Below are positions 7,658 to 23,587 of a stretch of 31,582 nt of DNA, piece after piece. The notes beneath the pieces are model-generated. The model was not told where the DNA came from and did not search any database. It saw only the letters and a list, made by a program, of their open reading frames with translations. The stretch is from positions 1-31,582 of the forward strand of contig JAFVUY010000119.1 of assembly GCA_017502465.1 (NCBI GenBank), given 5' to 3'. A program made the translations under genes and the position numbers. Every line of letters starts with the position of its first letter. Positions within the stretch are counted from its first letter, which is position 1. Origin of the DNA: Bacilli bacterium. Lineage in GTDB: Bacteria > Bacillota_I > Bacilli_A > RFN20 > CAG-826.

Positions 7658-8107
7658 TTATTCTGAATTTCTTATTGGAAGGACAACAGTTTTATCGTAA
7701 TATTCCTTTGCTTGTCCATTTCCTCCAAGACCCTCATACAATTTATAAAATTCAGTTAGCTAATCATACTAATCCTGAGTCATGTATCCTTGTTTTAAAT
7801 AGATTTTACATAATTGAATTAATCTAAATCTATAAGAAGCAATAATTAAATTCATCTAATGTTTTTCTTTCAAATCAACATTTCTAATATAACTTCTTAA
7901 TTCTTCAATATCATTTACTATTGGAGTAATTTGTTTTTCAATTTCTTCATCAATAGTTTCTTGTAAAGCAACCTAATCTCTTTCTTCAAGAAGTGCTTGG
8001 TACGCTTTCATCTATTTCCAAGTCCAACGACAAAATGCTAATGCACCTGCTGTTGTTAGACTAAGTAATACAGAACTCCAATTATTAGCGATAAATTCTG
8101 CTAGCAT
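7658..8107 (-). CDS. membrane-anchored small protein (N-terminal TM helix; possible holin/antiholin-like), 149 codons, 5 in-frame TAG
   Basis: RBS AAGGGGAA then ATG at 8107. The single frame is open to TAA (7660-7658) apart from five TAGs. N-terminus MLAEFIANNWSSVLLSLTTAGALAFCRW. No ORF over 60 aa was reported here, because of the TAGs. Confidence 0.45.
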
Positions 8108-8175
8108 TGGTTGATTCCCCTTTCTTTTGAAACCTTCTAACTTTTATGAAAACAAGAAAGGGAAAATTAAAAAAA

Positions 8176-8215
8176 CTCGGCCTTTATCAATCCCAGATAA
8201 AGGCCGAGTTTTTTT
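8176..8215 (-). terminator. rho-independent terminator hairpin (ctcggccttta / taaaggccgag) overlapping the 3' end of the resolvase gene
   Basis: An 11-bp perfect inverted repeat flanked by A6 and T7, so it is functional in either direction. Confidence 0.6.
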
Positions 8216-8672
8216 CGTTTATCACAGAAGTTCCAATGCAAATAGCATCACATATATCTTCTGGTAATCTTAAACCATATTTTCCTACAACATAGCTCTA
8301 AGCATTTTTCTTCTAAGTGGCGCGGTCGGCACCTTTAATACTTAAACTTGATTTCCAAGTATTAGAAGAAACAATCTAATATTTAATTTTATTTCTTGTA
8401 AAATATTCTTCAAGTACTCCACGTACTTCTGCAAGTGCTCTATAGACTTTTACATTCTAAATATCTTTTCCTTGTAATTGAATATCTTCAATCGCAATTT
8501 CATTGATATCATATTCATCAATTAAGGTTGCTACTTTATTAACGATTTTAACTAAACGAGTTCCAAAATCATCATCGGTAAAAGTAAAAGCACCCCAATT
8601 AATTAATTTGCCATTATCAAAAACAGCATATCCAGTAGTTCTTGATGCCTAATCTAATGCGAGTAATCTCAT
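8187..8672 (-). CDS. ruvC: RuvC-like Holliday-junction resolvase, 161 codons, 5 in-frame TAG
   Basis: The N-terminus MRLLALD-TAG-ASRTTGYAVFDNGKLINWG matches the RuvC catalytic motif I (ILGIDPGSRVTGYGV). ATG overlaps the dut stop (ATGA-type coupling). Ends at TGA 8189-8187. The ORF finder missed it because of the TAGs. Confidence 0.6.
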
Positions 8673-9238
8673 TAATTAGTAGAACCAAAACCGCCTTGGC
8701 GGACTCCTTCTGCGGCATCATTTTCAACTAATTCGTAGGTTTTTAGAATACCTTGACCGATTCTATCACCTTTACGCAGTTGAATGGGGAAAGGAGATAA
8801 ATTAATCATCTGGAAAAAGATTTCTCCTTCATTGTCTGGATTGTTATAATAATCGGCATCAATAATACCAATAGAATTAGCCATGATTAGCCAATGCTTC
8901 AAAGGAGTAGAACTACGAACAGAAAGTTCAAGATACATATCCTTAGGCAAGAAGCATTTTACACCAGTAGAAACAAGCGTAGGTTTAATACCACTTTTTT
9001 TAGTAATATTTTTTATTTCATCTAGGGTAAAAGTACCACAAACAGGAGTCTAATACATATTACTAAAACTTTTCATATCTTGCCAATAAGAAGGGACATA
9101 TGTATCTTCTGCTACTATAAAATCATAACCTGCGGAGGCAGCAGTCCCACGAGTGGGTAATAACATTTTTTCTTCTTTAATAAAACGAGTTACTGCCTCA
9201 AAACGAGGGGCATTAGAATTAATTTTAAAAATATTCAT
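8672..9238 (-). CDS. dut: dUTP diphosphatase (dUTPase), 188 codons with 1 in-frame TAG
   Basis: ORFs 9050..9238 and 8672..8950 share a frame and are joined across TAG (9049-9047). dUTPase motifs are present: PTRGTAASAGYD (I), PKDMYLELSVRSS (II), GIIDADYY (III), RIGQ (IV), RQGGFGSTN (V). Confidence 0.8.
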
Positions 9239-9240
9239 AA

Positions 9241-9483
9241 TTATTCTACCTCATACATAATATTTACTTGAACTTCTGGATACTTTTCATCGGCGAATAC
9301 TTTCTTTGCCTGAACTAAACAATATTCATCTACAACTTCCTTCTTTTCTTTAATTTGCTTTGTTTTATAGTTAAAACTTACAAGTTCAAAGTTAGGGTCA
9401 TCTTTTAATTCAGCATGAAGTTGTTCTACCTCTGTTACGGTTCCTACTCTATAAGTATCAACACTACTAATTAAATATTTCAT
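9241..9483 (-). CDS. hypothetical protein (80 aa)
   Basis: Intact ORF, stop/start overlaps with its neighbours, no TAG. Confidence 0.45.
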   Translation of the reverse strand: MKYLISSVDTYRVGTVTEVEQLHAELKDDPNFELVSFNYKTKQIKEKKEVVDEYCLVQAKKVFADEKYPEVQVNIMYEVE

Positions 9484-9743
9484 TCTATTACCTCAATTTT
9501 AATATTGTTTAAAGCATATACAGTTGATTCCGCACTTTTAATTCCTTCAATAATTTTATCAAGATAGCCTGCTGGACCACTTAATTTAACATTATAAACT
9601 TCTGTGCCATAACATAACCCAGCAATTGCTTCATCTACTAAATTAGTAGGAATATTAGAAATTGGAGTTGTAATTCCATTTTCTTCTAAATAAATAGTTT
9701 GATTTAGAGTTCCTAAATTAACATCACAGTAAATTACTGACAT
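9480..9743 (-). CDS. hypothetical protein (87 aa)
   Basis: Intact ORF with an ATGA overlap onto the downstream gene, no TAG. Confidence 0.45.
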   Translation of the reverse strand: MSVIYCDVNLGTLNQTIYLEENGITTPISNIPTNLVDEAIAGLCYGTEVYNVKLSGPAGYLDKIIEGIKSAESTVYALNNIKIEVIE

Positions 9744-10114
9744 TTAATTACCCCCCTATCATATGGGAAGAAGTACATAACAAACACTTCATCCTCTTCG
9801 GTTTTTACCCAAATTTCAATTGCGTTCTCTCCTTCTTCAACGCTTAAAATAGAACCTATATCATGAGCACATCCAATTACTTCTTCTTCAATATTTGGAA
9901 GATTTAGGCCTAAACTACTCTGATAATCAAATAAAGTAAAATATCTTAATTCATGGCAAAGCAACATATAATATCTATTTTTTTGTTCTTCGCAAAAAGC
10001 AAGGATATTTTCTGTCGCTTCATAAAGTTCATTGTCATCAAGAGGTGTTTGCTATTTCATTATATTTTTATTTAAATCATAAAGAGTTAAGCCAGTTTCT
10101 ATTTTATTTTCCAT
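9734..10114 (-). CDS. hypothetical protein (126 codons, 1 in-frame TAG); start overlaps the nrdG stop
   Basis: ORF 9734..9967 extends upstream in frame through TAG to ATG at 10114, which is preceded by AAGGAG. It overlaps the end of nrdG (ATGGAAAATAA). A later in-frame ATG at about 10057 is an alternative start. Confidence 0.4.
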
Positions 10115-10598
10115 TTACAATCTCCTTAGAATAAATAATTCTTTGATTTGAACTACCTCTCATTTGTAGAGTTGTATCTCGCAATTCTTCAATAAAAGGC
10201 CCATCAATCAAACAATCAATATTGGATAAAACATATTTTGTCTTATTATCATATCTTTTAACTAATTCTTCATAAGTATATCCAGTCCAAAGATAAATCT
10301 TTTGATTTGGATATTTTGCTTTTACTTGTTGAATTAGTAAAGTAGTAAGAAAAATATTCCTATCACATAAAGGCTCTCCGCCCATAATACATAGAGTTCT
10401 ATTAACTCCATTTGCGCGAAGACCTCTTATAATATCTTCTAAAACATCATTTGTAAATCGTTGTCCGCCTTCATAATCCCAGGTTTCTGGATTATGACAA
10501 CCTTTACAATGGTGCGGACACCCCTGGGTAAAAAAGGTTAAACAAACACCAGGAGCGGCCGCAGTATCATTATATATAATACCAGAATAACGCATCAT
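10104..10598 (-). CDS. nrdG: anaerobic ribonucleotide reductase activating protein (radical SAM)
   Basis: CPHHCKGC radical-SAM cluster motif. 164 aa. ATGA overlap with the nrdD stop. Confidence 0.85.
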   Translation of the reverse strand: MMRYSGIIYNDTAAAPGVCLTFFTQGCPHHCKGCHNPETWDYEGGQRFTNDVLEDIIRGLRANGVNRTLCIMGGEPLCDRNIFLTTLLIQQVKAKYPNQKIYLWTGYTYEELVKRYDNKTKYVLSNIDCLIDGPFIEELRDTTLQMRGSSNQRIIYSKEIVNGK

Positions 10599-12784
10599 AT
10601 ATGTTTTACTCTCTTTTCAACCTCATCTTGCTTTCCTTTGTTGAAAGCAGTTTTATAATTACCAGTTAAATAACCGGTTACTCTACGTAATTGTTGAATT
10701 TCTTCGCCGCCGCATACAGGGCAAGCATCATTAAATTCATCAGTATATCCGCAAGTTAAGCAAGTGTCATTAGGCACATTAACTGCGAAATAAGGAATAT
10801 CTTTATTCATAGCATAATTAACAATTTGTTCTAACGCATCCAAATTATTTTTAATACCAGTATCTAATTCTACATAAGTAATACAACCAGCAGAACTATA
10901 ACCAGTCAATTGACTTTCAATATCAATCTTATCAAATGGACTCATTTTCTTCCATACAGGAACGTGCATAGAATTAGTAAAAAATTCTTTATCACTAACA
11001 TTTTCAATTACACCATACTTATCTTTGAATTTCTTCATTGCGGTATGGCATAAGTTTTCCGCAGGAGTATAATAAACACCAAAATTTAATTTATATTGGT
11101 CTTTATAAATAGCACACTTTGTTTTAAATAAACCTTCAATTTCTTTTGCAAGAGCCATACCCTTAGGGTCAGTATGGTCGCAACCAATAAGAATTTGAAG
11201 TGCTTCCGCAAGTCCTAATTGACCCATAGCAAGAGTACCATGCTTTAAAGCAGAACGAATTCCTTCTTCTGGAATATATCCAGCCATCAGTCCGTTTTCA
11301 TACATAAATTTAGCAGAATCGGGAGATTGAGAACAAATCCATTCAAATCTTTCAATTAGCATATCCTTAGCATCTTCAATTGCTTTATTTAAAATCTCCA
11401 TAAACTTATCAACAGAGCCTTCTGCTTCCATTGCCAGAGTGGGAAGAATGATGGTTACAGGACAGATATTTCCGCGACCATCTTTACGTTGTCCAAGCCC
11501 ATTAATATCCCAGCCATTTGCGGTGCGACATCCCATTGTGCTGAAATAGGTACAAGGGTCATTGATATCGTAGCCTGCGTTTCCAGACCAGTCTACATTC
11601 GCATAGTTTGGATATAGGCGCTGAGCAGTGGATTTAAGTGCTAGTCTATACAAGTCATAATTGGGGTCTCCTGGTTCACGATTAACTCCTCTCATTAACT
11701 GGAAAATACCGCATGGGAAGATAGAAGTCTTACGCAATTTACCTAAACCTTCAATAGAAACTTCCAGTAGAGCCTTAATAACCATTCTACCTTCTGGTAG
11801 AGTACAAGTACCATAGTTAATAGAAGTAAAGGGAAGTTGGTTGCCAGAGCGGGACTGTAAAGTATTTAAATTGTGATACATACCTTCAACTGCTTGACGT
11901 ACTTCTTTTTCAGTTAAATCCATTGCATATCTGTAAACTTCTTTATTCTGTTCACAATTTGCTTCTCTATCATTAAAAGAAAGTTCTGCTGGCACGATTT
12001 TTGCATACTCTTCATCTTTTAAGATGTATTTAACACCATCTTTAAAGTGCTTGGAAAAACTTTTTCTTACATATGGAACCATAGTCCAGTCTAAATGAGT
12101 AGCACTTACTCCACCAAACTGCTGTAAAGATTGTAATTGGAAAATTACAGCAACTAATTGGAAAGCAGTATTTACAGAGTTCGCGGGACGCACATCGGTT
12201 TGTCTAGTGTTAAAACCATTTGCTAATAAATCATCAAAAGGAACAGATAAACAGTTATGACTGCCGACAGCATAATGGTCTAGGTCATGAATATAGATTC
12301 TATTTCCTAAATGATTTTTACGGGCTTTGTCTGAAACTAAATAGTCCAAAGCATATGTTTTGGTCAAAAGACTTGAAGCCTCGCCTACGCGTCCGCCAAA
12401 AGATGCTTCATCAACATTCGCATTTTGATTTTGAACATTTGAAGCAGAGAGTTTTTCTCCAATAGCCTTAGTGAAATCATCTCTCTTTTCTCTTGCAACT
12501 TCTCTCTTATATCTATGTCTAATATATGCGCGAGCCACATCTTTGCGTTCTGAACGCATTAGGTAGTCTTCAACAGCATCTTGAATTTGTTCTACGGAAG
12601 GAATATGGTCTTTTGCGTGCTTTTGGAAAAATCTAAAATCACTTTCAATATCATGTGCGATATCTCTTGCGGTATCGCTTTCATATAACTATCCATCCAC
12701 ATCAATAAAGGCACTATTGATAGCATGAATAATTTTTGTTTGATCAAAAGGGACAATATCCCCATTTCGTTTTATAACATTCAT
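10595..12784 (-). CDS. nrdD: anaerobic (class III) ribonucleoside-triphosphate reductase with N-terminal ATP-cone; 729 codons, 1 in-frame TAG in the ATP-cone
   Basis: ORF 10595..12559 extends 75 codons upstream through a TAG to ATG at 12784 (GGAGGT RBS). This adds an ATP-cone (MNVIKRNGDIVPFDQTKIIHAINSAF...). The C-terminus carries the Zn ribbon CLTCGY...CPVCGG and the glycyl-radical motif RRVTGYL. Confidence 0.85.
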
Positions 12785-12859
12785 ATCATATACCTCCAAC
12801 CTAAATGTAGTATTTTTTGTTTTCATCAGTACTATATTTAGGTTTTATTTTTATACGAT

Positions 12860-13426
12860 TTACCAATTGTGGCCTTCTATAACCTCAATAACATTATTAA
12901 CCACTTTAGAAACAGCATAATTATTATTATAAACTATCCAAAAATTAAATTTGGGTTCATTGTAAAGGAGACTTTCAAAATCATAGAAATCAGTTTGAAA
13001 ACGACGACAAATTTCAAGAACGTCTGGATTATGTTCTCTTTCCAATTGTCTTATTAGACGCTCTTTATCATCAGTTTCAATTAAAATAGGCAGAACTTTG
13101 ATTTTATCTTTTTTTTCAAGTTTTAAAAGAGAACGAATTCCAGTAGGATTAAACACCCCGATATTAATTTTATCTTCTTTTAAAGCACTCATTTGAGTAC
13201 CATAAAACCATTTTCTAAATTCTGCTGTTTCTAACATTTTTTGATTATGAAATTCTTCTTCTGTTAAGAAATTATAATCAACGCCATCTTTTTCATAATC
13301 TCTGGGTGGGCGAGTGGTACAACTTACAATCCCATGGAATCGTGGGTCATTAAGACCCATGATTCCTTTTTGAATTGTATCCTTGCCCGCTCCGGCTTTA
13401 CCCATTAACGCAACAATTTTATACAT
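12860..13426 (-). CDS. guanylate-kinase-like nucleoside monophosphate kinase
   Basis: P-loop GKAGAGKDT and guanylate kinase signature TTRPPRDYEKDGVDYNFLTEEEF...AEF..YGT. The start overlaps the polymerase stop. Confidence 0.75.
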   Translation of the reverse strand: MYKIVALMGKAGAGKDTIQKGIMGLNDPRFHGIVSCTTRPPRDYEKDGVDYNFLTEEEFHNQKMLETAEFRKWFYGTQMSALKEDKINIGVFNPTGIRSLLKLEKKDKIKVLPILIETDDKERLIRQLEREHNPDVLEICRRFQTDFYDFESLLYNEPKFNFWIVYNNNYAVSKVVNNVIEVIEGHNW

Positions 13427-16400
13427 CTTCTTCTAATTCTCCTTGATATCTAGTGCTTCGCAACTTTATATCACCATTAGGATATACTTCATCAATCTTA
13501 TATAACTGATGCCCGCCAGTTGAATTATACTTCTTCGCAATAAAATTATCTCCATTGCGAATACCCTGGACTACAATCATACTGCCACGATTGAACCAAG
13601 ATTTTTCAACTACATGCTTCACGCCATCTGCTCCTCGTTCAGAAATCTGCTTATCAAACAGAGAGAAATATTCTTTTCTAAATTTAACTTCTACTACGCC
13701 TTCACGAGTTAAAAGAGTTACAGTTCCTTTATCTTTATTCTTCGCAATACAAGTTCCGCAGATTTTATGAAGTTTGAAAAGATTTATAGTTTTACCATTC
13801 TTGGTAAATGCTCTATCTACCATTGGTTCTTCTGGTAAATCAAAGAAATTAGAAAATCCATACTTAGGATAATTTACATTATTCAACTCATGGCTGTGAT
13901 AATAGAAACATAAAACCTCCATTTCCCAAGCAGAAATATTACCGTTTTTGGCATATTTTTTGTAGTTTTCTAAAAAGATTTTTTCATTGAGGGATTGAAG
14001 TATGTCGTTGTGATTTTCTGCTATCCAGTTTCTAAAAACATCCATGTAAATTTGATAAACTTTTTTATCCCATTCTTTGGAAGATATGAAGTTATTTTCT
14101 TTGATTAAATCTTCTCTTTCAATTTCAATTAAGAAATTAATTGCTCGTTCATCTAATCTATATAAGTCATTATTTACTTTACATACAGCCTTTAAATATC
14201 TATTAAATTCATATACTCTACGAGCAAGAACTCTTTCGTCTGTGTCTTCTGGAATAAGACCATACTTCATCATAGTAGGCATATTCTGTAAAGTAATTCT
14301 TTTTTTCTTATCACAAGTTTCCCAAATATACCAACCCATACAGAGTTTTCTATCCATCATTTCATCAAAAGCACCAGCCTTAATTAGAGAAATCATTGCT
14401 TGACGAGTGGGTTTTACTCGGTTCAAGAAATCTCGTGGGGAAACATAAGGACGATTTTCAATAATTGTATTAACCAAATCGTCGCCAATATTCAATAATC
14501 CTTTTAATCCAAAAAGAATTTGATTATTTTCTACATCTGGAACAAATCCAAAAGATGAAGTGTTAATATTTGCTAAACTAACTTTAATACCTGCTTCACG
14601 AATTTCGCCAATTGCCTTTGCAATCTTACCATAATTGGTGCTTTCATCCGCTTCATCTTCTTCGCTTTCAATAGAACCACTATTTATCAGAAGACAAGCA
14701 GTATTCCAATAAATAGGATTGAAGTTAGTTGCCAAATATAATGTTTGCATACCTACAAAGGAATATGCTAATGCGTGAATAATAGAGAATGAATAACCCA
14801 TCTGCGGCCCTGCTCCATATTTCCACACATACTCACCTAATCTTTTTCTCTTTGCTCTATCAAGAACTTGCTGATGAAGTTGAGGGATTTTATCCATCTG
14901 TTTCTTACCTACAATTTTACGAGCATTATTTGCTTCGCCCAAGGTAAATCCGCAGATATTTTCATCCATCAACATACGCATTAACTGTTCCTGACTAGGT
15001 GGAACGCCATAGGAAGAAAGGAAGTAAGGTTCAAGAGTTTTTTGCTCCTCTTTTGTTAAACCAAAGTCATCCATTTCTTTATACCAAAGATTAATATTAT
15101 TCTTAAAACGAACATATTTATCAATTGGCATTTCGCCACCTTTTTCGCCAGTCATCAATCGCATCAAGCCATTTGCGTCGGCCATTTCAAGTGCGGTAGT
15201 AGGCTTAATCTTTTTTGCTGCCTGAGCACCCACGCTACTATCAAACTGGAAACAACTAATAACAGCATTATTAGCCAAAGCATTCCACATTCTTTTATCC
15301 GTTTGAGGAAGAACATTTGGATGCAAATATTTATTATAGACTTCACGCAAACTTAATTCTGGTTCAATGACACCATCTGCTTGTAAAAATTCAATCGTTT
15401 TAATGATAATATCTTGAACCGAAGTTAACAAAAAGTCATACTTAACACTGCCTGCGGCTTCTTGGTCATGAAGGTCCCACTGGGTTACAATTGCTCCGCT
15501 CGGAGTTCTCATAATCGCTGCGGTATCATAAATATTTTCATCAAATAAAATAACACCAGATGCATGGCTGCCTCGTCGGCAAACCAGGCCTTCAATGCCT
15601 CCAATAATTTCAATCAGACCAGGATACTGATTTGCCGCATTAATAAATTGAGTTTGAGGTTTTCTATCCTTTGAAGGATCACCATGAATCAAATCATTTA
15701 AACTCCACAAAAATCCTCTTTCTACTGGAACCAATGAAGATAAATATTGGGCTTCATCAACATCAATTCCATCTGGATATTCATCAGAACGATAACCTCT
15801 ACACGCAGTTAAGATTGCTGATTTAGTTCCTTCTGTGCCGAAAGTACAGACTTGAACCAAACCTAACTCTCCTCGTTCCTCTCTAATCTTTGCGAAAATC
15901 TTTTTAAGTTTTGAAGGAGCAAGGTCAATATCAATATCGCCCAATTCAACTCGTTCATCATTAAGATATCTCCAAAATGGCAAGTCCCATTTAATTGGGT
16001 CCAATTGAGTGATACCAAGAAGATAATGATTCAAACCAGAACAAGCAGAACCTCGTCCCGCACCTACCGTGCTGCCGCACTCCCAGAACAAATCAATATA
16101 GTGTTGAAGTGTATTAGGATATGCAAACATACAGGTTTCAAGTTTTTCACCAATAATTCTTTTTACACGAGCTTCTTCTTCCAGTCTATCAAGATAACGA
16201 GCATCATTAATTAAATCTAAATCTCGTAATTTTTCAAGACATTGATTTACCCAATATCTTTCTTGAATATTGTCAGATACACACAGTTCTTTTAAAACTT
16301 TATGTCTTCTATTTCCTTCACTAAACCATCCTGTTGTTTTAGGATAATTTTTAACTTCTACTTCTGGAATTGACTGATGATATTCAAGACTATAAAATTC

Positions 16401-17288
16401 AATCTGATTTTTCATATTGATACTATTTTCAAAAATCTTATCAATATATTCATCATCAAACGAAAGTCTTAAAATATCTCTACATTCATCGGGAGACATA
16501 AGATAAGTTGTTTCATAGAATGCATCAACTTCTCTTTCACCGCCTTTTGAATTTAGATAAGCCTTATGAACCCATCTATCTTCTGGTCTAGTGTAATGAG
16601 AGTCAGAACCGACACAAACATTCAAATTAAACTTTTCTGCCAATCGGCGAATTCTGTCATTTACTAATTTCTGCTCTCCGCTTTTACCGGGTGCTACTTC
16701 TAGATAAAAGTTTTCTTTGCCGAAAACACTGGTACAATAATCTAAAAAATAAATAATATTGTTATAGTGTTCTTCTGCGTTCTTCCAATCATCTACGTTT
16801 TCGCAATCTTCTAATAGCATAAGTTCACTGCCAAGGAATCCACCCATACAAGCAGTTGTCGCAATCACATGGCCTTTATAATTTTTCATTACACTGGCCA
16901 ATTCATTATAAAGAAGTGGAACTCTTTCCATTCTTCTATCAGTATAAACATTATACCAAGCAATTGAACTTAATTCCTTCAATGCCCGATAACCAATTTT
17001 ATCTTTTGCAATTAAGATAAAGTGATAATACTTTTGACCACTACTTCTATCTTTTGTGAGATAAATTTCATTACCTAATGCAATTGTAAAATCTGGATTT
17101 GTTTCTCTAATTTTCTTCGCATACTTATTTACCTTAATATGAGAAGATAAACACTCATGGTCTGTGATGGCAATGCCACCCAGACCAAGATTAATTGCTG
17201 TATCAATCAGTTTTTCTGGACGATTAATACAATCAAGTAGACGAAGATTTGAATATTCAGTATGTGTATGATTATCAAAAAAAGTCAT
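13419..17288 (-). CDS. dnaE: DNA polymerase III alpha subunit-like replicative polymerase (DnaE-type, N-terminal PHP domain); 1289 aa, no TAG
   Basis: PHP N-terminus MTFFDNHTHTEYSNLRLLD. Palm motif GDIDIDLAP. Large uninterrupted ORF with a TGAGG RBS. Confidence 0.85.
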   Translation of the reverse strand: MTFFDNHTHTEYSNLRLLDCINRPEKLIDTAINLGLGGIAITDHECLSSHIKVNKYAKKIRETNPDFTIALGNEIYLTKDRSSGQKYYHFILIAKDKIGYRALKELSSIAWYNVYTDRRMERVPLLYNELASVMKNYKGHVIATTACMGGFLGSELMLLEDCENVDDWKNAEEHYNNIIYFLDYCTSVFGKENFYLEVAPGKSGEQKLVNDRIRRLAEKFNLNVCVGSDSHYTRPEDRWVHKAYLNSKGGEREVDAFYETTYLMSPDECRDILRLSFDDEYIDKIFENSINMKNQIEFYSLEYHQSIPEVEVKNYPKTTGWFSEGNRRHKVLKELCVSDNIQERYWVNQCLEKLRDLDLINDARYLDRLEEEARVKRIIGEKLETCMFAYPNTLQHYIDLFWECGSTVGAGRGSACSGLNHYLLGITQLDPIKWDLPFWRYLNDERVELGDIDIDLAPSKLKKIFAKIREERGELGLVQVCTFGTEGTKSAILTACRGYRSDEYPDGIDVDEAQYLSSLVPVERGFLWSLNDLIHGDPSKDRKPQTQFINAANQYPGLIEIIGGIEGLVCRRGSHASGVILFDENIYDTAAIMRTPSGAIVTQWDLHDQEAAGSVKYDFLLTSVQDIIIKTIEFLQADGVIEPELSLREVYNKYLHPNVLPQTDKRMWNALANNAVISCFQFDSSVGAQAAKKIKPTTALEMADANGLMRLMTGEKGGEMPIDKYVRFKNNINLWYKEMDDFGLTKEEQKTLEPYFLSSYGVPPSQEQLMRMLMDENICGFTLGEANNARKIVGKKQMDKIPQLHQQVLDRAKRKRLGEYVWKYGAGPQMGYSFSIIHALAYSFVGMQTLYLATNFNPIYWNTACLLINSGSIESEEDEADESTNYGKIAKAIGEIREAGIKVSLANINTSSFGFVPDVENNQILFGLKGLLNIGDDLVNTIIENRPYVSPRDFLNRVKPTRQAMISLIKAGAFDEMMDRKLCMGWYIWETCDKKKRITLQNMPTMMKYGLIPEDTDERVLARRVYEFNRYLKAVCKVNNDLYRLDERAINFLIEIEREDLIKENNFISSKEWDKKVYQIYMDVFRNWIAENHNDILQSLNEKIFLENYKKYAKNGNISAWEMEVLCFYYHSHELNNVNYPKYGFSNFFDLPEEPMVDRAFTKNGKTINLFKLHKICGTCIAKNKDKGTVTLLTREGVVEVKFRKEYFSLFDKQISERGADGVKHVVEKSWFNRGSMIVVQGIRNGDNFIAKKYNSTGGHQLYKIDEVYPNGDIKLRSTRYQGELEEDV

Positions 17289-17525: not shown

Positions 17526-17526
17526 T

Positions 17527-18651
17527 TTATTTCCTCACAATCACAACTTTACTTCTAGCACGAGTAATAGCAGTATATAGCCAGCGTGCGTGTTCTTCAC
17601 CAGTAGGCCATCTTTCTTCAAAAACAAGAACTTTATCCCATTCACTACCTTGTGCTTTATGGGTAGTAATAGCATAAGCATATGAAAAATCATATGGGCC
17701 TTCTCTTTTTCTTTTTCTCAATTGAGCTTGCTGATAACTAGTCAATGCAGGCACAGATTGAGTTAAGTACTTATAGTCAATAGGAATGTAATCAAAAGTA
17801 TCTGTGGGGTCATCATCAATAGAAACGGTTGTATATAAATGAGTAACAGGTTCTTTACAAATCCAAGGAGGAAAATATACATCCTTCTTATCCATATGAG
17901 TAATAGTTCCAATAGAACCATTGGTTAAGTCCCATTCACCTGAATTAGAACAAAATCCCCAGTGATTAGTTAAACCGATGATTTTATCACCGACACAAGG
18001 CTCAAATCCATATCCTTTAATTGCGCGGACAGTGCAATTAATTTCTTTACGTTTAGCATTGGTAGCACAAAGAATTTGGTCTGCCCATGAATACATCCCT
18101 GTATTTAAATCTTTTTCTGAAACAATCATTACTTGTTCATTTTTACAAGGAAAATCTGCTATATCCTTGCCTTCACGCACCCACATAGATAAACGAATAA
18201 TTTCACTATCTTGTGCCTGCCGCATAATCTCATCCAGAAATACGTGCGGATTATCAAGCACATGGTTATCACTATCTTTATCTACTGGGGGTAATTGACC
18301 GGGGTCGCCAGTTGCGAGAATATAAACTCCACGAGTTAGCAGAAGTTCCCACATATCTTTTGGAAGCATAGATACTTCATCTACTACAATGACTTTTAAA
18401 TGTGCGAATTCTGTTTTTGATTTCTTTACAAAAATAAATCCACTACCATCTGATTTTGGACGAGCGTGATAAAGTAATCTATGTGCGGTGGTCGCGTTAG
18501 GACATCCCTTTGCACGTAGAACAGTAGCAGCCTTACCTGTAAAAGCAACATAGCAAACTTCATTATTTTTATCAACACCCAAAGCGTCAATAATAAAGTT
18601 AATTAAAGTTGATTTACCTGTGCCAGCATTTAAGCGTAGCCAGCAATACAA
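17527..18651 (-). CDS. SF1B Dda/RecD-like DNA helicase (main body)
   Basis: Walker A AGTGKST, Walker B VIVVDEVSM, ATGDPGQLPPV, ITTHKAQGSEWDKV, LYTAITRARSKVVIV. The ORF-track start is a TTG, not an ATG. Confidence 0.8.
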   Translation of the reverse strand: MYCWLRLNAGTGKSTLINFIIDALGVDKNNEVCYVAFTGKAATVLRAKGCPNATTAHRLLYHARPKSDGSGFIFVKKSKTEFAHLKVIVVDEVSMLPKDMWELLLTRGVYILATGDPGQLPPVDKDSDNHVLDNPHVFLDEIMRQAQDSEIIRLSMWVREGKDIADFPCKNEQVMIVSEKDLNTGMYSWADQILCATNAKRKEINCTVRAIKGYGFEPCVGDKIIGLTNHWGFCSNSGEWDLTNGSIGTITHMDKKDVYFPPWICKEPVTHLYTTVSIDDDPTDTFDYIPIDYKYLTQSVPALTSYQQAQLRKRKREGPYDFSYAYAITTHKAQGSEWDKVLVFEERWPTGEEHARWLYTAITRARSKVVIVRK

Positions 18652-18722
18652 GTATAAGGTTTTCTTTCCTTGTATCTGGCTACGGCAATTTTCAATCCTT
18701 CTTCTTGCTTTTTAGTTAGCAT
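18630..18722 (-). CDS. N-terminal 30 codons of the Dda/RecD-like helicase in the -1 frame relative to 17527..18651 (frameshift, split gene or indel)
   Basis: ATG at 18722 (overlapping the HNH stop) encodes MLTKKQEEGLKIAVARYKERKPYTCIAGYA, then TAA. The Dda-like N-terminal consensus (LTEGQKNAF..I..AIKEKK..VTINGPAGTGKTT) spans this segment plus the AGTGKST of the downstream frame. Confidence 0.4.
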   Translation of the reverse strand: MLTKKQEEGLKIAVARYKERKPYTCIAGYA

Positions 18723-19233
18723 CAAGATTTACTTCCTCACTTTCTTCAAAATTTAAATCTTCAATATTCCATAAATTATCATGTAATTCTTTATGACAAT
18801 TTGAACAAATTAAAATACATTTTTTACTTTCTTCTATTGCATCTAATAATTTAAAATGGTCATTGCTTATAGTAAAATCTTTCTAAGAAGGGTCTATGTG
18901 ATGGAACTCTAATGCTTTTATGCATTTATTATAACCACATCTAACACATCTTCCGCCTCGCTGTTCTTTTATTTTTGCTAAAAACATTCCGCGAGTAAGT
19001 TGAATACCATTTGGCATACAGTCATAGCAACAAATTCGCTAACTTGCGGCGGCGCTTTTTGGAGTAAATGTTTTTCCACAAATAGGACATACTTTTTCAG
19101 AAATACCTCTTATACGACCTTTTTCAGCATATTTTTTTCTACGCGAAGCGTTTAAACATTCATTGCTACAATACTTTTTTGTAGATTTTTGTGCTTCAAA
19201 TTCTTTTCCACATATTATACATTTTACTATCAT
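18712..19233 (-). CDS. HNH endonuclease with N-terminal zinc ribbons, 173 codons, 2 in-frame TAG
   Basis: ORF 19039..19233 ends in TAG and continues in frame to TAA at 18714-18712. The continuation encodes GGRCVRCGYNKCIKALEFHHIDPS-TAG-KDF...CILICSNCHKELH (HNH core). The N-terminus has CIICGK...CSNEC and CPICGK CxxC pairs. AAGGAG RBS. Confidence 0.7.
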
Positions 19234-19341
19234 ATTTTATTTTTCTCCTTATAAAAATATTTTCTATATTATTTAAAAAATATCTTTATAATATTCGCCA
19301 GTTATACCCAAAGTTTTTTTCTAACGATATAACCGGCGAAA

Positions 19342-19584: not shown

Positions 19585-19587
19585 AAT

Positions 19588-20226: not shown

Positions 20227-20259
20227 AATTCATTAAACTCCATTAGTTTTAAAATTTTT

Positions 20260-20838
20260 TCAATATATTCCAAATTCTTCATAAAAATTATAATCTTCTA
20301 CAAGTATAATTGGTTCTTCATCCCAGTCCATTGTCCATGGGTCATAAGAATTAGTCTTAATAGACTTTATTTCTTCTATATAAATGTCTTCAATCTCACT
20401 ATTTGATTCAAAAATTTCCAAATCACTTTTTTGTTTTGCCGTGTCCGCCCCAGTGAAGCCTGCTAATGCCTCAGATAATTTTCTCATGGATTCTGAAAAC
20501 TCACTTACACTTACTCCAAGAGAAAGAAAATCTCTTGTATGGTGAATAGCATTATCTATATCTGGCTCTTTATCAAATAAATAATTTGTTTGACATTCTA
20601 TTTCATCAGTGCGGCATTGAAGAGCAGCAACTTCTGTATATAATTCATTTGTTAAAGCAGGAATTTTATTTTCTATCTATTTCACTCTTACATCTAATTC
20701 CTCTATTTTTGTTTTTAGAAATTTTAGATTTTCTGAAATAGCCTTAAACTCTGCTGTAATATTTTTATCAGAAATAATAATCAACTCTTTTCGCAATTTC
20801 ATAATCTTCAATTTGAATTTGAGGACTTGTAAATCCAT
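20260..20838 (-). CDS. coiled-coil hypothetical protein (about 192 codons, 1 in-frame TAG); start uncertain
   Basis: ORFs 20677..20865 and 20260..20487 share a frame and are joined across TAG (20679-20677). The first ATG is at 20838, and the ORF-track M at 20865 is a TTG. It overlaps the RecJ-like C-terminal extension. Confidence 0.4.
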
Positions 20839-22501
20839 TAAAACTATTTTTCTAAAAAGTTCCAATAATATCTAAAACTAACATTCCATTATCTGGCGGA
20901 GTTAATTCTTCAATTTCATCCTCTTTCATAAAGAATTTTATGAAACTTATTCTATCTTGCGGGAGATCAATTCGCATAGTCTTTCCTCCTGCTCCAATGA
21001 ATCGGAGGCTAGATTTATCAAGTTTGACTCCTCTAATTGCGATGAGAGGTTCGTCAATGTTTTGTCCCCATAACTCTCGCCAATTTGCTAACTCATAAAT
21101 AAGATTTCCTGTAAGTTCACTTGCATCTAAGATGAAGTCTACTCTATATAAGCGTTCAAAAGATACTTCACTAAGTAATAAGTTAATTGTACTAACAAAA
21201 TTGGAAAAATCTTTATCAAGAACTCCTACGCCAAAAGCACCTTGATGTCCCTCCGCATACATAGTTAAATTTGTATCTGCGAGAAAATCTTTTAAATTAG
21301 GAAAATTATAACTGCGGCCAGAACCTTCCCAACTCTTAACTCCATCTCTAATCATTTCTTGTAAGATTAAAGTAGGTCTTTGATATTTCGCAGCCAACTG
21401 GTTCGCAATCAAACCAGATAGATTTTTATCAACCAATCCATTGGGAATGGGAATAATTAAAATCTTATTTTCAAGAAGATTATATTCTTCAATAATTTTA
21501 TCAATCGTTTCAAGACCTTCGTCTTGAATTCTTTTTTGTCTATTCTTTACATTTGTACTGGTGCGACCGGCCTGTTCCGCACGGGTTTCAAACTGACCTT
21601 TACATCCTCTCTTGGTAGAAGGAATCATTTCATATGCTCTAAAATCAAGCATACTTTCAAAAATCAATATCTTTTCATCATAGGAGCCAGAACGGTTAAT
21701 CGCATTAATAAAAGGTGCTACATAGAAAGCAACAGCAACAGGAGTAACTCCTCCTTCAAATTGTCTAGCATTTCTATCAACCATTTCTTTGAAAAATGGA
21801 TTTCTAATATTTAAAAGTCCTTTTTGAATTAATGCCTGTGTTTCAAAATCTCTGGAATCCATCATATCAGCAATCATCCCAAGAGAAACTAAATCTAAGA
21901 AATTGTCTGCTTCATCAATTCCCAGTAGTTCATCAATATAGCAACAGAATTTATATGCCATACCTACACCAGATAAAGATTTAGTAGGATAATCACAAAG
22001 TTGATTATTGATTACGCACGCATTTTCTGAAACCCTGGGAGCCTCATGATGGTCAATAACAAGAACATCAATGCCGGCGTCTGCAAGATTTTTGTGAATA
22101 TCAAATTCATTAGAACTAGAATCAATAGCAATTATTAATTTAGTTCCTTTTGGAATACGGTCTTCAACAATACCATGATGTTTATCTAACTAAGCCTTAT
22201 AAATAATATTGTTCTGAGCAAAATGCGGAAACAATCTATTTAAATAGTTAATAAATAACGCTGCCGAAGTAAAACCATCACAGTCACTATCTATTGGCAT
22301 ATAAACTAAACTATTTTCATTTATATGTCTTAATAGCATTTTTACACCTGTTTCAATATTAGCAACTCTACTAGGAGCAATAATATCAGCATCACTAAGA
22401 TTTAAAAAATGCTAAATATTTTCCCTTTTGATTCCTCTATTTAAAAGAACCTATTCAATCATTGTAGGTTCTGTTTGTTTTGAAATCAATTCATATCTCA
22501 T
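20768..22501 (-). CDS. DHH-family phosphoesterase, RecJ-like ssDNA exonuclease; about 577 codons, 4 in-frame TAG
   Basis: ORF 20852..21961 extends upstream through 3 TAGs (22453, 22414, about 22190). That adds DHH motif I (IDSDCDGFTSAAL) and motif III (LVIDHHEA) plus an RGI-type N-terminus (VLLNRGIKRENI). The DHHA1-like domain (GHQGAFGV, NRSGS) lies in the reported ORF. The reported 'stop' at 20854-20852 is TAG, and the frame continues 28 codons to TGA at 20770-20768. Start is ATG 22501 or 22462. Confidence 0.65.
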
Positions 22502-22817
22502 TCATACTTTCCCCAATAAAAAATCTATATGCTGAAAAAGGTCCAACGCACATGCAACGCATAATTACACTATCAATAAAATCAAAAGGAATACCGTGTT
22601 GAATATAAGATATATTGCATCTTTCTCCTCTGGCTGATTCATGGGCAAGTCTTACTTTCCAAATATCTCCATTGTCAAAGAAAACCATAGGAGACATACT
22701 ATACCAGCACTCTTTTTCAACATTAACACCCCAGTATTTATATGATTCAATCATCCGTCGCAATTGAGCCTTTCCATCTTCGGTTTTCAAACACCAAATT
22801 ACGCCTTTAATTTTCAT
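22491..22817 (-). CDS. hypothetical protein (108 aa)
   Basis: Intact ORF, TGA stop, no TAG. Confidence 0.45.
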   Translation of the reverse strand: MKIKGVIWCLKTEDGKAQLRRMIESYKYWGVNVEKECWYSMSPMVFFDNGDIWKVRLAHESARGERCNISYIQHGIPFDFIDSVIMRCMCVGPFSAYRFFIGESMNEI

Positions 22818-22849
22818 AAATATACTCTTTCTTTAAATAATTTTAATTT

Positions 22850-23587
22850 TTATAATACTATATAATTAGAAGTATTAAGCATGAGGTCAGAAATACATAA
22901 AGTATTTAACTTTGTATATGGTATTCTAATAATTGGTATGTTATGTTTTTTGCACCAACTATTTTTATATTCATCATGTTGTTGTGTTATTAGAAAATTT
23001 TCTTTAGTATTCCATGTGTGAGGATTACTTTTATAATAATAATGTTGCTCGCCATCATATTCAATAATATAAGAATTATTTACATAAAAATCAAATTTAG
23101 CATAATAATTACTATCCTAAAATTTACAATTATCAAAAATTTTTTGTTCTTCAAATGGAATATTCTCAGATTCTAATAAACTTTTGATAAGAACTTCGCC
23201 TTTAGATTTCATGCAACCACAAGAAGATACTTTTCCTTGCTAAAGGTCATGAGTATTAACTTCACACCAGTTTCCACAATCACATAAGCACTTCCAAATT
23301 ACTCTACCGTCATTGCTGCGTTTATTTGTTTTTTCTTTTGCTATTAATTTACCAAACCTCTAATCAATAAGATTTAAAGTCTAACGAGCAATATTATTTT
23401 CTATTAATATAGATTTTTTATAACATCCACAACTTTTAGTTTTTCCATTTTTTAATCCATCACTGCGAATTAATTTTTCTACTCCACACTAACATCTGCA
23501 ATTCCAATAAATTTTATTATTTTTTTTAATCGGGCCATCAATCACTGTAAAATAATTAAAAACTTGACCTATTAAATTTTCAGCCAT
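22850..23587 (-). CDS. homing-endonuclease-like protein: two Zn-finger modules (WxCxCxCG...SCGC) plus PD-(D/E)XK/Vsr-like nuclease domain; 245 codons, 5 in-frame TAG
   Basis: Minus-strand frame from ATG 23587 (RBS GAAAGGAAAGGTGAT) to TAA 22852-22850. Repeats: FNYFTVIDGP..IYWNCRC-TAG-CGVEKLIRSDGLKNGKTKSCGC and RFGKLIAKE..VIWKCLCDCGNWCEV..GKVSSCGC. The C-terminus has DFYV...IIEYDGEQHY. The ORF finder missed it entirely. Confidence 0.55.

What the first reader, a model, noticed from the sequence alone, without database searches (positions are those of the whole stretch)
7658..23587. Which amino acid does TAG encode? Position-specific hints are mixed
Precedent (code 15) predicts Gln. Several contexts are compatible with that: a Q-rich small protein, and a BspA-type repeat position that is Q/S/H in sibling repeats.

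Other contexts point elsewhere. In the duplicated zinc-finger module of the endonuclease-like gene, TAG (WNCRC-TAG-CGVEKL) aligns with the Asp of the sister repeat (WKCLCDCGNW). In RuvC motif I (LALD-TAG-ASRTTGY), TAG occupies the position that is Pro in E. coli RuvC (IDPGSR).

The identity therefore cannot be settled from this window.
Basis: inference. Interest (0 to 1): 0.5.

Follow-up and report, generated by a model that had tools for sequence, protein, structure and literature searches.

The report
TAG codon means glutamine here

Summary
The window (first 31.6 kb of a 63.6 kb metagenome contig) has 55 in-frame TAGs in 21 of 39 genes, 25 of them in 7658-23587. All genes end in TAA or TGA. 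The two "contrary" contexts are as described: TAG lies opposite Asp of the sister zinc-finger repeat and opposite Pro8 of E. coli RuvC.

The identity is not ambiguous once relatives are used. Opposite the window's TAGs, related phage genomes carry CAA/CAG in 171 of 343 distinct sense observations, and TAG itself in 72 more. On 37 evaluable columns Gln beats every other amino acid by at least 35 log-likelihood units, whichever gene is left out. Q is the commonest residue in 54% of TAG columns, against 66% for true Gln codons and at most 2.7% for any other residue. In the RuvC motif, family members have Gln.

A close relative (82-85% nucleotide identity) encodes a tRNA(CUA). Its acceptor and D-arm carry the determinants that direct GlnRS charging. 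No tRNA was found in the window or in about 59 kb of its own strain.

TAG is three times denser in structural/lysis genes than in replication genes, and absent from core replisome genes, as in published code-15 phages.

Caveat: TAG sites fall somewhat more often on positions where relatives conserve a non-Gln residue (6/37 vs 9/221).

The parts
1..966 (+). C-terminal part of a 2354-aa LRR_5 (BspA-like) protein; 3 in-frame TAGs (442-444, 670-672, 943-945)
   Evidence: The full-length gene is seen in same-strain contig L166/L227 and has 30 in-frame TAGs. The repeat position of TAG 442-444 is S3, N2, K, H, Y, Q in sibling repeats.
966..1175 (+). 69-aa protein, 1 TAG (1104-1106)
   Evidence: Relatives have TAG or Lys.
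1273..3165 (+). 630-aa structural-module protein, 7 TAGs
   Evidence: Public protein P0121 has Q at all 7 sites, which is the gene caller's code-15 choice. Codons in relatives L240/L242/L243: TAG or CAG at 1633-1635, TAG at 1729-1731, variable elsewhere.
3191..4030 (+). 279-aa structural-module protein, 6 TAGs
   Evidence: Only 0-3 relatives per site, all at variable positions (H/K/Y, S/E, E/K, K).
4047..4436 (+). Holin (phrog_13712, E = 1.3e-29), 1 TAG at 4293-4295
   Evidence: Relatives: Gln 12, TAG 2.
4606..5007 (+). 133-aa protein with Q-rich N-terminus, 1 TAG at 4807-4809
   Evidence: Relatives: Gln 5, TAG 3.
5026..5268 (+). 80-aa protein, 3 TAGs (5056-5058, 5209-5211, 5254-5256)
   Evidence: Relatives: Gln 8; Gln 8; Met 6. 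The last is a conserved non-Gln column.
5291..6118 (+). 275-aa Gly/Cys-rich protein, 2 TAGs (5534-5536, 5699-5701)
   Evidence: Relatives: Gln 9, N3, T2; Gln 4.
6144..6563 (+). 139-aa protein, 1 TAG at 6168-6170
   Evidence: Relatives: Gln 11, TAG 1.
6577..7314 (+). 245-aa protein, 2 TAGs (6763-6765, 6874-6876)
   Evidence: Variable (Y/E/I); TAG or Gln.
7658..8107 (-). 149-aa protein with an N-terminal hydrophobic segment, 5 TAGs (8012-8014, 7973-7975, 7856-7858, 7769-7771, 7760-7762)
   Evidence: Relatives: TAG3/Q1; D7 (conserved non-Gln); D3/H2; Q6/TAG3; Q6/TAG3. PHROG families of unknown function.
8187..8672 (-). RuvC-like resolvase, 5 TAGs (8649-8651 in motif I, 8457-8459, 8376-8378, 8313-8315, 8298-8300)
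   Evidence: Pfam RuvC, E = 1.5e-9. Motif-I site: Gln 8, TAG 7, Leu 1 in distinct contexts; raw counts Q41, TAG16, L5. Opposite Pro8 of E. coli RuvC. Other sites: N4; T1; Q9/TAG7; Q11/TAG3.
8672..9238 (-). dUTPase, 1 TAG at 9050-9052
   Evidence: Pfam dUTPase. The TAG lies in a variable insertion with no reliably aligned relatives.
9734..10114 (-). 126-aa protein, 1 TAG at 10052-10054
   Evidence: Relatives: TAG, Y, E, Q, one each.
10595..12784 (-). Anaerobic ribonucleotide reductase NrdD, 1 TAG in the ATP-cone at 12689-12691
   Evidence: Pfam domains. Variable column: I5, TAG4, T3, K3.
18712..19233 (-). HNH endonuclease with Zn-ribbons, 2 TAGs (19039-19041, 18883-18885)
   Evidence: PHROG HNH endonuclease, E = 4e-22. 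Relatives: Q3, TAG2, N1; Q2, K, E, L.
20260..20802 (-). 180-aa protein, 1 TAG at 20677-20679
   Evidence: Public gene call. No relatives in the fetched loci.
20768..22501 (-). RecJ-like DHH exonuclease, 4 TAGs (22451-22453, 22412-22414, 22190-22192, 20852-20854)
   Evidence: Pfam DHH and RecJ_OB. Relatives: Q3, TAG3, R2; E2, D2, TAG2; H12 (conserved non-Gln); A4, D2.
22850..23587 (-). Homing-endonuclease-like protein with two W-x-C-x-C-x-C-G zinc-finger modules, 5 TAGs (23489-23491, 23381-23383, 23360-23362, 23240-23242, 23117-23119)
   Evidence: PHROG HNH/homing endonuclease, E = 1.4e-31. Site 23489-23491: D9, E3, F2 in relatives. In 150 diverse homologs the position is D118, E43, S15, K10, Q6, N3 of 204. 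Other sites: S1; Q4, K2; R5; P4.
27349..28323 (-). AAA_24 (Sak4-like) ATPase, 2 TAGs (28297-28299, 28144-28146)
   Evidence: Pfam AAA_24, E = 4.7e-39. Relatives: Q11, K7, E5, TAG3; Q24, TAG3, L2.
28342..29277 (-). YorF-like protein, 1 TAG at 29230-29232
   Evidence: Pfam YorF. Relatives: Q20, E10, D4.
13419..17288 (-). YorL/SPbeta-type DnaE-like polymerase with no TAG; an example of the TAG-free core replisome genes (also helicase 17527-18651, primase-like 23665-24759, DnaB 25072-26601)
   Evidence: 0 TAG in 1289 codons, against 38 CAA/CAG. (41% identity to Enterococcus phage polymerases, 38% to SPbeta YorL).

Best explanation
TAG is a sense codon for glutamine in this phage (NCBI genetic code 15).

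Proposed mechanism: the phage infects a standard-code host, probably a member of the Clostridia. During infection it supplies an amber-suppressor tRNA with anticodon CUA. The body of that tRNA carries the acceptor-stem, discriminator and D-arm determinants, plus U35, that lead to charging with glutamine.

Genes without TAG can be translated from the start. These are the polymerase, helicase, primase, DnaB, NrdG, ThyA and DHFR. Genes that contain TAG yield full-length protein only once the suppressor is present. These are nearly all structural genes, the holin, RuvC, RecJ and the homing endonucleases. Recoding would therefore also act as a timing device for late functions.

Shown here: TAG is in frame and never terminates a gene; TAG columns behave as Gln columns; a close relative encodes the suppressor tRNA; TAG is concentrated in the structural/lysis module.

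Inferred: the window's own genome carries the same tRNA outside the sequenced contig; that tRNA is charged with Gln; recoding controls timing.
For: 1. TAG is sense. There are 55 in-frame TAGs and no in-frame TAA or TGA. All 39 genes end in TAA or TGA. ORF recovery is large. Across relatives, in-frame TAG occurs in 695 aligned cells against 13 for TAA/TGA, 8 of which are at one site just upstream of a start codon.

2. Identity from codons in relatives.
- Raw counts: CAA 330, CAG 112, TAG 109, next CAT 36.
- After collapsing identical contexts: CAA 121, CAG 50, TAG 72, GAA 24, GAT 21.
- Likelihood uses substitution profiles learned from the same alignments. On 37 columns Gln is best, Glu -35.6, Asn -36.1, Lys -37.9, Asp -53, Trp -82.7. 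Gln stays best by at least 28 units when any one gene is left out.
- Q is the plurality residue in 20 of 37 TAG columns. The rate is 65.6% for true Gln columns and at most 2.7% for any other residue (binomial p = 4e-22).

3. Reverse test. Relatives' own in-frame TAGs lie opposite a window Gln in 78 of 174 distinct sense columns. Gln makes up 3.4% of aligned columns.

4. Suppressor tRNA. L224:7633-7707, in a 21-tRNA array of a close relative, is a tRNA by Rfam (61 bits). The relative shows 82-85% nucleotide identity to the window's contig, and L224 is 100% identical to L221 over their 11 kb overlap. The tRNA has anticodon CUA, a U1.U72 mismatch, G2-C71, G3-C70, G73 and G10. It matches the array's own tRNA-Gln(UUG) at 13 of 15 acceptor and discriminator positions, against at most 10 of 15 for other isotypes. 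The literature says U35, pairs 1-72 and 3-70, pair 10-25 and the discriminator are GlnRS determinants, and that a tRNA-Trp changed to CUA is charged by GlnRS (PMC9976931, PMC2965240).

5. Distribution. TAG density is 11.2 per 1000 codons in the + strand structural/lysis module and 3.7 in the replication module, and zero in core replisome genes. The close relative's endolysin has 5 TAGs. This matches published code-15 phages (Borges preprint). TAG to Gln has been proven by mass spectrometry in crAss-like phages (PMC9523058).
Against: - No tRNA gene was found in the window, in the next 10 kb of the source contig (L079), or in about 18 kb to its left in the same strain (L166, L226). The suppressor is known only from a relative at 82-85% nucleotide identity.
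- Whole-sequence similarity does not assign the suppressor's isotype. Its nearest neighbours are Ala, Thr, Val and Gln tRNAs at 0.66-0.70.
- The identity signature is shared with tRNA-Trp (5 of 7 copies).
- If the host lacks GlnRS and makes Gln-tRNA indirectly, charging of a CUA tRNA is less predictable.
- TAG columns are somewhat less Gln-like than canonical Gln columns. Mean Q frequency is 0.43, against a 95% resampling interval of 0.47-0.70. Six of 37 lie on positions where relatives conserve M, D, N, H, R or P, against 9 of 221 for true Gln columns (p = 0.011).
- 18 of the 55 sites could not be evaluated because they had fewer than 3 aligned relatives.
- The timing role is inferred from codon distribution only.
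Confidence: 0.88

Rival explanations
1. TAG is decoded ambiguously or heterogeneously. Gln is the main product, but a second amino acid (for example Trp, Lys or Glu) is inserted at an appreciable rate. Alternatively, TAG is selected as a slow or leaky codon at sites where the exact residue matters little.
For: - Excess of TAG at positions where relatives conserve a non-Gln residue: 6/37 vs 9/221, p = 0.011.
- Mean Q frequency at TAG columns lies below the interval for true Gln columns.
- The suppressor body fits both the tRNA-Gln and the tRNA-Trp signature.
- More distant relatives carry two different tRNA(CUA) genes side by side.
- Amber suppressors are prone to mischarging, for example by LysRS through U35 (PMC2965240).
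Against: - The commonest non-Gln residues at TAG columns (D, H, E, N, K) are the same kinds seen at true Gln columns.
- Trp appears once among 343 sense observations, and Trp is 82.7 log-likelihood units worse than Gln.
- The excess rests on 6 columns, with thresholds chosen after seeing the data. Two of the six are in a homing endonuclease that may be under weak constraint.
- The L224 array region holds only one tRNA(CUA).
Confidence: 0.08
2. TAG encodes a single amino acid other than Gln, for example Asp or Glu as the zinc-finger repeat suggests, Pro as the E. coli RuvC comparison suggests, or a classical suppressor product such as Tyr, Ser, Leu, Lys or Trp.
For: - Zinc-finger position: D118 and E43 of 204 modules.
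- RuvC motif I is opposite Pro8 of E. coli RuvC.
- Several columns are conserved D, H, N, M, R or P in relatives.
Against: Every alternative is at least 35 log-likelihood units worse than Gln (Glu -35.6, Asp -53, Pro -72, Tyr -81, Trp -83, Leu -87). P(plurality = Q) is at most 2.7% for any non-Gln residue, but 54% is observed. The family's own RuvC has Gln at the motif-I site. The tRNA(CUA) has no long variable arm, which argues against Ser, Leu or Tyr, and it has G73 rather than the A73 used by LysRS.
Confidence: 0.02
3. Gln is correct, but this particular genome does not encode the suppressor. Read-through would depend on a host tRNA, a co-resident element, or a low natural level of read-through.
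For: - No tRNA in about 59 kb of this strain (window, L079, L166, L226).
- By synteny with the close relative, the rest of the source contig corresponds to sequence that has no tRNA (L164, L169, L221).
- The literature notes recoded phages without suppressor genes (PMC10607447).
Against: - In the close relative the array lies about 29-38 kb beyond GyrB, which is past the end of the 63.6 kb source contig. Its absence from the contig is therefore expected.
- 30 TAGs in one 2354-aa gene cannot be read by low-level natural read-through.
- More distant relatives also carry tRNA(CUA) genes.
Confidence: 0.1
4. The TAGs are real stops. The genes would be fragmented pseudogenes, or the TAGs would be assembly or sequencing artefacts.
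For: None beyond the formal possibility. Under the standard code, ORFs of at least 150 codons cover only 33% of the structural module.
Against: Identical proteins recur in independent assemblies and samples. Conservation continues across the TAGs, and TAG aligns with TAG or CAA/CAG in relatives. Only TAG, never TAA or TGA, interrupts frames.
Confidence: 0.01

Closest known systems
Code-15 (TAG to Gln) recoded gut phages: crAss-like, Lak and the 'gemstone' clades (Borges et al., bioRxiv 10.1101/2021.08.26.457843; Peters et al. 2022, PMC9523058)
   Same: In-frame TAG aligns with Gln. The genome is low in GC. A suppressor tRNA(CUA) is present in the lineage. Recoding is concentrated in structural and lysis genes and in homing endonucleases, and is variable or absent in replication genes. 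The public gene caller already applies code 15 to this contig.
   Different: The lineage is different. It has a YorL/SPbeta-type DnaE polymerase, and relatives are about 130-170 kb and binned with Clostridia MAGs. No release factor or aminoacyl-tRNA synthetase 'code-change module' was seen in roughly 100 kb examined. There are no proteomic data for this lineage.
phAss-1 / proposed Phassvirus group (Babkin et al. 2023, PMC10607447; OQ749652)
   Same: A gut phage of about 136 kb with TAG to Gln, a pol III alpha-type polymerase, NrdD/NrdG, TAG in the dUTPase and holin genes, tRNA-Sup(CTA) genes within a large tRNA set, and no dedicated synthetase.
   Different: Only 36.5% polymerase identity and no nucleotide-level match. 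It is not the same genus and probably not the same family-level group.
E. coli amber suppressors supE (tRNA-Gln CUA) and su+7 (tRNA-Trp CUA, charged by GlnRS)
   Same: CUA anticodon on a body with a weak 1-72 pair, G2-C71, G3-C70, G73 and G10. The literature shows such tRNAs are glutaminylated.
   Different: The tRNA here is phage-encoded, has a U1.U72 mismatch, and its D-loop differs from both E. coli tRNAs. The host's synthetase repertoire (GlnRS, or GluRS plus GatCAB) is unknown. Charging was not tested.
SPbeta-like and Enterococcus phages with a YorL-type polymerase (e.g. SPBc2, VRE9_3)
   Same: Replication module: YorL-type polymerase (38-41% identity), YorF-like protein, DnaB, and nucleotide-metabolism genes.
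   Different: Those records show no sign of recoding. This is my reading of the ordinary annotations listed. It was not tested codon by codon.

Membership tests
Genetic code 15 (TAG to Gln) recoded phage | In-frame TAG in conserved genes; reading it through restores full-length ORFs | tested here: met
   55 in-frame TAGs in 21 of 39 genes. ORF recovery 28.3 to 38.7 kb. Structural module coverage 33% to 93%.
Genetic code 15 (TAG to Gln) recoded phage | TAG is not used as a terminator; only TAA and TGA end genes | tested here: met
   TAA 30, TGA 9, TAG 0. In-frame TAA/TGA is almost absent in relatives.
Genetic code 15 (TAG to Gln) recoded phage | TAG columns align with Gln in homologs | tested here: met
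   CAA+CAG make up 171 of 343 distinct sense observations. Gln is best by 35.6 log-likelihood units on 37 columns. Reverse test: 78 of 174 columns against a 3.4% background.
Genetic code 15 (TAG to Gln) recoded phage | Phage-encoded suppressor tRNA with anticodon CUA (common but not universal in published cases) | tested here: inconclusive
   None in the window or in about 59 kb of the same strain. Present in a close relative at L224:7633-7707, at a position that falls beyond the end of the source contig.
Genetic code 15 (TAG to Gln) recoded phage | Recoding concentrated in late (structural and lysis) genes | tested here: met
   11.2 vs 3.7 TAG per 1000 codons. Holin 1 TAG. The relative's endolysin has 5. 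Core replisome genes have 0.
Genetic code 15 (TAG to Gln) recoded phage | Gln detected at TAG positions in the protein | not testable with these tools
   Requires mass spectrometry. Done for crAss-like phages only (PMC9523058).
Gln-inserting amber suppressor tRNA (supE / su+7 type) | CUA anticodon with U35; weak 1-72 pair, G2-C71, G3-C70, G73, G10 | tested here: met
   The L224 suppressor has U1.U72, G2-C71, G3-C70, G73 and G10. The signature is shared with tRNA-Trp (5 of 7), so it does not reveal the tRNA's origin.
Gln-inserting amber suppressor tRNA (supE / su+7 type) | Aminoacylation with glutamine by the host enzyme(s) | not testable with these tools
   The host and its GlnRS or GatCAB status are unknown. 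The only host hint is Clostridia MAG bins.
Phassvirus (phAss-1 group) | Nucleotide similarity and genome synteny with phAss-1 (members are 80-86% identical to each other) | tested here: not met
   No megablast match to OQ749652. Polymerase only 36.5% identical.

The most novel reading that the evidence does not exclude
TAG in this lineage may not be a plain synonym of CAA/CAG.

It sits more often at positions where relatives conserve a non-Gln residue. The lineage's suppressor has a hybrid Gln/Trp-type body with an unpaired 1-72. Distant relatives carry several structurally different suppressors, including tRNA(CUA) and tRNA(UCA) genes with an unusual hairpin of about 20 nt in the variable region.

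The most novel reading not excluded is that decoding is deliberately heterogeneous or stage-dependent. That could mean more than one amino acid, or stop-versus-Gln choices that create alternative products. One possible example is the HNH-helicase junction, which is TAG in relative L055 and TAA in the window.
Probability: 0.08. Interest if true: 0.6.

Novelty: new member of a known kind. Interest (0 to 1): 0.25.

Why it matters
The practical value is for annotation. This contig and its many relatives must be translated with code 15, otherwise most structural, lysis and several DNA-processing genes are fragmented.

It also adds a lineage to the list of TAG-to-Gln phages that is absent from annotated phage collections. 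This lineage has an SPbeta-like replication module and is associated with Clostridia. It shows the same bias of recoding towards late genes, which supports the generality of the timing hypothesis.

It does not change what is known about the code itself.

Tried and rejected
- **Nucleotide search of GenBank phages.** Only a 766-bp NrdD match.
- **tRNA scans that found nothing.** The window, 78 polymerase-anchored loci, the next 10 kb of the source contig, 41 kb of the close relative (L164, L169, L221), the left flank of the same strain (L166, L226-L231), relatives L240-L243 and the MAG loci L245-L250.
- **The odd tRNA(CUA) of L202/L204** (G1-C72, A73, G37). An exact-pattern scan showed it in only two IMG/VR contigs, so it is not a feature of the family.
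- **A strict pattern for the L224/L193-type suppressor.** It matched 8 IMG/VR contigs, none of them among my polymerase-anchored loci. A planned correlation between tRNA presence and TAG use could therefore not be made.
- **Isotype assignment by whole-sequence nearest neighbour.** Ambiguous.
- **My first reading of the acceptor signature as 'Gln-specific'.** This was wrong. tRNA-Trp shares the signature. The argument now rests on published GlnRS determinants and the su+7 precedent.
- **Long-ORF coverage as a per-locus recoding index.** Not discriminating in early-gene regions.
- **Look-ups and the exhaustive search with TAG-containing proteins.** I worked around this with the TAG-free C-terminal domain.
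- **The BspA-repeat hint.** The position is simply variable and uninformative.
- **Pfam gave no family** for several structural proteins.

Full report
**What the window is.** The 31,582-bp window is low in GC (0.28-0.40). It has a + strand module (1-7621) and a - strand module (7658-31382). It corresponds to positions 1-31582 of a 63.6 kb ENA metagenome contig, ERZ27256853 k141_154837.

The - strand module is a replication and nucleotide-metabolism block. It holds RuvC, dUTPase, NrdG, NrdD, guanylate kinase, a 1289-aa YorL/SPbeta-type DnaE-like polymerase, a helicase, HNH endonucleases, a RecJ-like exonuclease, a primase-like protein, DnaB, an AAA_24 (Sak4-like) ATPase, a YorF-like protein, DHFR and ThyA.

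The + strand module is the end of a structural/lysis block. It holds the C-terminus of a 2354-aa LRR_5 (BspA-like) protein, two large proteins without family matches, and a holin (phrog_13712, E = 1.3e-29).

GenBank phages contain nothing close. The best polymerase identity is 41% (Enterococcus phages), SPbeta is at 38% and phAss-1 at 36.5%. IMG/VR and ENA hold many relatives of 75-195 kb. Contigs of about 150 kb with 63-70% polymerase identity are binned in Clostridia MAGs.

**Checking the observation.** With TAG read through, the total length of ORFs of at least 100 codons rises from 28.3 to 38.7 kb. In the same strain's structural module, coverage by ORFs of at least 150 codons rises from 33% to 93%.

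Using the public gene starts, there are 55 in-frame TAGs in 21 of 39 genes, 25 of them within 7658-23587. There is no in-frame TAA or TGA. All genes end in TAA (30) or TGA (9).

- YWNCRC-TAG-CGVEKL at 23489-23491, with the sister repeat IWKCLCDCGNW.
- RLLALD-TAG-ASRTTGY at 8649-8651, opposite Pro8 of E. coli RuvC in a weak alignment to PDB 1hjr (E = 0.15).
- The BspA repeat and the protein with the Q-rich N-terminus exist but lie outside the stated coordinates.

**Which amino acid: codons in relatives.** All window proteins (TAG written as X) were aligned by tblastn to related loci. Contigs of the window's own strain were excluded. The codon opposite each TAG was read only where the 12 flanking residues had no gap and at least 5 identities.

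Counts opposite the window's TAGs:
- Raw: CAA 330, CAG 112, TAG 109, then CAT 36, ATG 34, GAC 31.
- After adding closer relatives for the left third of the window and collapsing identical contexts: CAA 121, CAG 50, TAG 72, GAA 24, GAT 21, AAA 18.

I then learned the substitution profile of each of the 20 amino acids from the same alignments and scored the 37 TAG columns with at least 3 distinct sense observations. Gln is best. The runners-up are Glu (-35.6 log-likelihood units), Asn (-36.1) and Lys (-37.9). Asp is at -53, Pro -72 and Trp -83. Gln remains best by at least 28 units when any one gene is removed.

Q is the plurality residue in 20 of 37 TAG columns (54%). It is so in 65.6% of genuine Gln columns and in at most 2.7% of columns of any other residue (binomial p = 4e-22).

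The reverse test is independent of the window's TAGs. Relatives' own in-frame TAGs lie opposite a window Gln in 78 of 174 distinct sense columns, while Gln makes up 3.4% of aligned columns. In-frame TAA or TGA occurs in 13 cells against 695 for TAG.

**The two contrary hints.**

RuvC motif I: within the family the position is Gln in 8 distinct contexts, TAG in 7 and Leu in 1. The raw counts are 41, 16 and 5. The Pro of E. coli RuvC belongs to a homolog too distant to be informative.

Zinc finger: I searched 1.84 billion representatives with the TAG-free C-terminal domain and extracted W-x-C-x-C-?-C-G modules from the 150 best full-length hits. The position is D 118, E 43, S 15, K 10, Q 6 and N 3 of 204. 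The site does admit other polar residues, and one site cannot outweigh 37. With Gln the window's protein simply has a minority residue there.

**A real nuance.** TAG columns are a little less Gln-like than CAA/CAG columns. Mean Q frequency is 0.43, against a 95% resampling interval of 0.47-0.70. Six of 37 TAG columns fall where relatives conserve M, D, N, H, R or P, compared with 9 of 221 true Gln columns (Fisher p = 0.011). I chose the thresholds after seeing the data. These six sites are 5254-5256, 7973-7975, 8457-8459, 22190-22192, 23240-23242 and 23117-23119.

The simplest reading is that TAG codons accumulate at tolerant or lineage-specific positions, two of them in a homing endonuclease. 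Heterogeneous decoding is not excluded, and I list it as the main rival.

**The decoding machinery.** The window has no tRNA. Neither do the next 10 kb of the source contig or about 18 kb to the left in the same strain.

I walked along a close relative, which shows 82-85% nucleotide identity over the shared region and 61-96% amino-acid identity for shared genes. Forty-one kb held no tRNA (L164, L169, L221). L224 is 100% identical to L221 over their 11 kb overlap, and it revealed a 21-tRNA array with a tRNA(CUA) at 7633-7707. Rfam scores this tRNA at 61 bits. By synteny the array lies beyond the end of the 63.6 kb source contig, so its absence from the contig is expected.

The suppressor has a U1.U72 mismatch, G2-C71, G3-C70, G73, G10, U35 and A37. 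It shares 13 of 15 acceptor and discriminator positions with the array's own tRNA-Gln(UUG), against at most 10 of 15 for any other isotype.

Two cautions apply. Whole-sequence nearest neighbours are ambiguous. Across 171 distinct tRNAs from all loci, this signature is met by tRNA-Trp (5 of 7) as well as tRNA-Gln (3 of 11) and the suppressors (6 of 9).

The literature resolves the ambiguity in favour of Gln. U35, the 1-72 and 3-70 pairs, the 10-25 pair and the discriminator are GlnRS determinants. E. coli tRNA-Trp mutated to CUA loses Trp identity and is charged by GlnRS (PMC9976931, PMC2965240). Whatever its ancestry, such a tRNA is expected to carry Gln if the host has GlnRS. Trp is in any case excluded by the alignments.

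**Distribution and likely role.** TAG density is 11.2 per 1000 codons in the structural/lysis module (28% of all Gln-type codons) and 3.7 in the replication module (11%). The polymerase, helicase, primase-like protein, DnaB, NrdG, guanylate kinase, DHFR and ThyA have none. RuvC has 5 TAGs in 161 codons, the 149-aa membrane-anchored protein has 5, and the homing endonuclease has 5. The endolysin of the close relative has 5.

This is the pattern reported for code-15 and code-4 phages and interpreted as control of late-gene and lysis timing (Borges et al. preprint). TAG to Gln has been shown directly by mass spectrometry in crAss-like phages (PMC9523058). A similarly organised but distant gut phage, phAss-1, has been described with tRNA-Sup(CTA) genes (PMC10607447). 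The public gene calls for this very contig already place Q at TAG. That is an annotation choice, not evidence.

**Verdict.** The interpretation that the identity is open is only partly supported. TAG encodes glutamine here, so this is a further member of the known class of code-15 phages. The lineage has an SPbeta-like replication module, is probably Clostridia-infecting, and is absent from annotated phage collections. Interest is low to moderate. The only features that go beyond the textbook case are the modest excess of TAG at conserved non-Gln positions and the variety of suppressor tRNAs in more distant relatives.

Noticed in passing
window 18561-19236 (- strand); relative L055 570-2285: The HNH ORF and the helicase ORF lie in the same frame, separated only by TAA (18712-18714). 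The residues just after the stop (KARRRIENCRSQIQ) are conserved with relative L055, where the junction codon is TAG. Under code 15, L055 would therefore make one HNH-helicase fusion. Relatives without the HNH gene have a different helicase N-terminus of about 30 aa (M-x-LT-x-KQE-x-GL) before Walker A. In the window, Walker A lies only about 7 residues after the putative TTG start.
   Followed up: partly
L232 1226-1316 and 1320-1394; L234-L239; L119 499-594; L138 and L139 176-271: More distant relatives carry two adjacent tRNA(CUA) genes. One is 75 nt. The other is 91-94 nt with an extra hairpin of about 20 nt in the variable region (motif CCCTCTGAAGG). Others carry 96-nt tRNA(UCA) genes with a similar long arm. 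So both amber and opal suppressors, some of unusual architecture, occur in the wider group.
   Followed up: partly
L202 6416-6492, L204 6659-6735: An atypical tRNA(CUA) with G1-C72, G2.U71, A73, G37 and a 3-bp D-stem. It is found in only two IMG/VR contigs, and its amino-acid identity is unclear.
   Followed up: partly
L221 8431-9324 (= L224 17859-18752): The close relative encodes a Thg1-like protein (tRNA 5'-end repair/guanylyltransferase family) about 10 kb from the tRNA array. Its suppressor tRNA has an unpaired 1-72 position.
   Followed up: no
L079 189-3133 (source contig about 38-41 kb), compared with L164 10001-11902: GyrB of the window's own contig is split by a GIY-YIG endonuclease ORF (GyrB N-terminal part, GIY-YIG, GyrB_C). 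The close relative has an intact 633-aa GyrB. This looks like a mobile intron or homing-endonuclease insertion.
   Followed up: no
window 1-966 and L166 2630-9694: The first ORF of the window is the C-terminus of a 2354-aa LRR_5 (BspA-like) protein with 30 in-frame TAGs, the most heavily recoded gene seen. The window starts at the contig end. Contig k141_1944893 of the same assembly carries the upstream part of the structural module.
   Followed up: partly
window 7301-7303, 13433-13435, 20872-20880: Four TAGs counted in the first stop-to-stop ORF map lie upstream of the real start codons: 7301-7303, 13433-13435, and two within 20872-20880. They are not in genes. At 7301-7303 relatives have TAA.
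   Followed up: yes
L245, L247, L249 (genome contigs): Contigs of about 150 kb with 66-69% polymerase identity are binned in Oscillospiraceae, Eubacterium and Lachnospiraceae MAGs. They are probably whole phage genomes co-binned with their hosts, which is a weak host hint.
   Followed up: no
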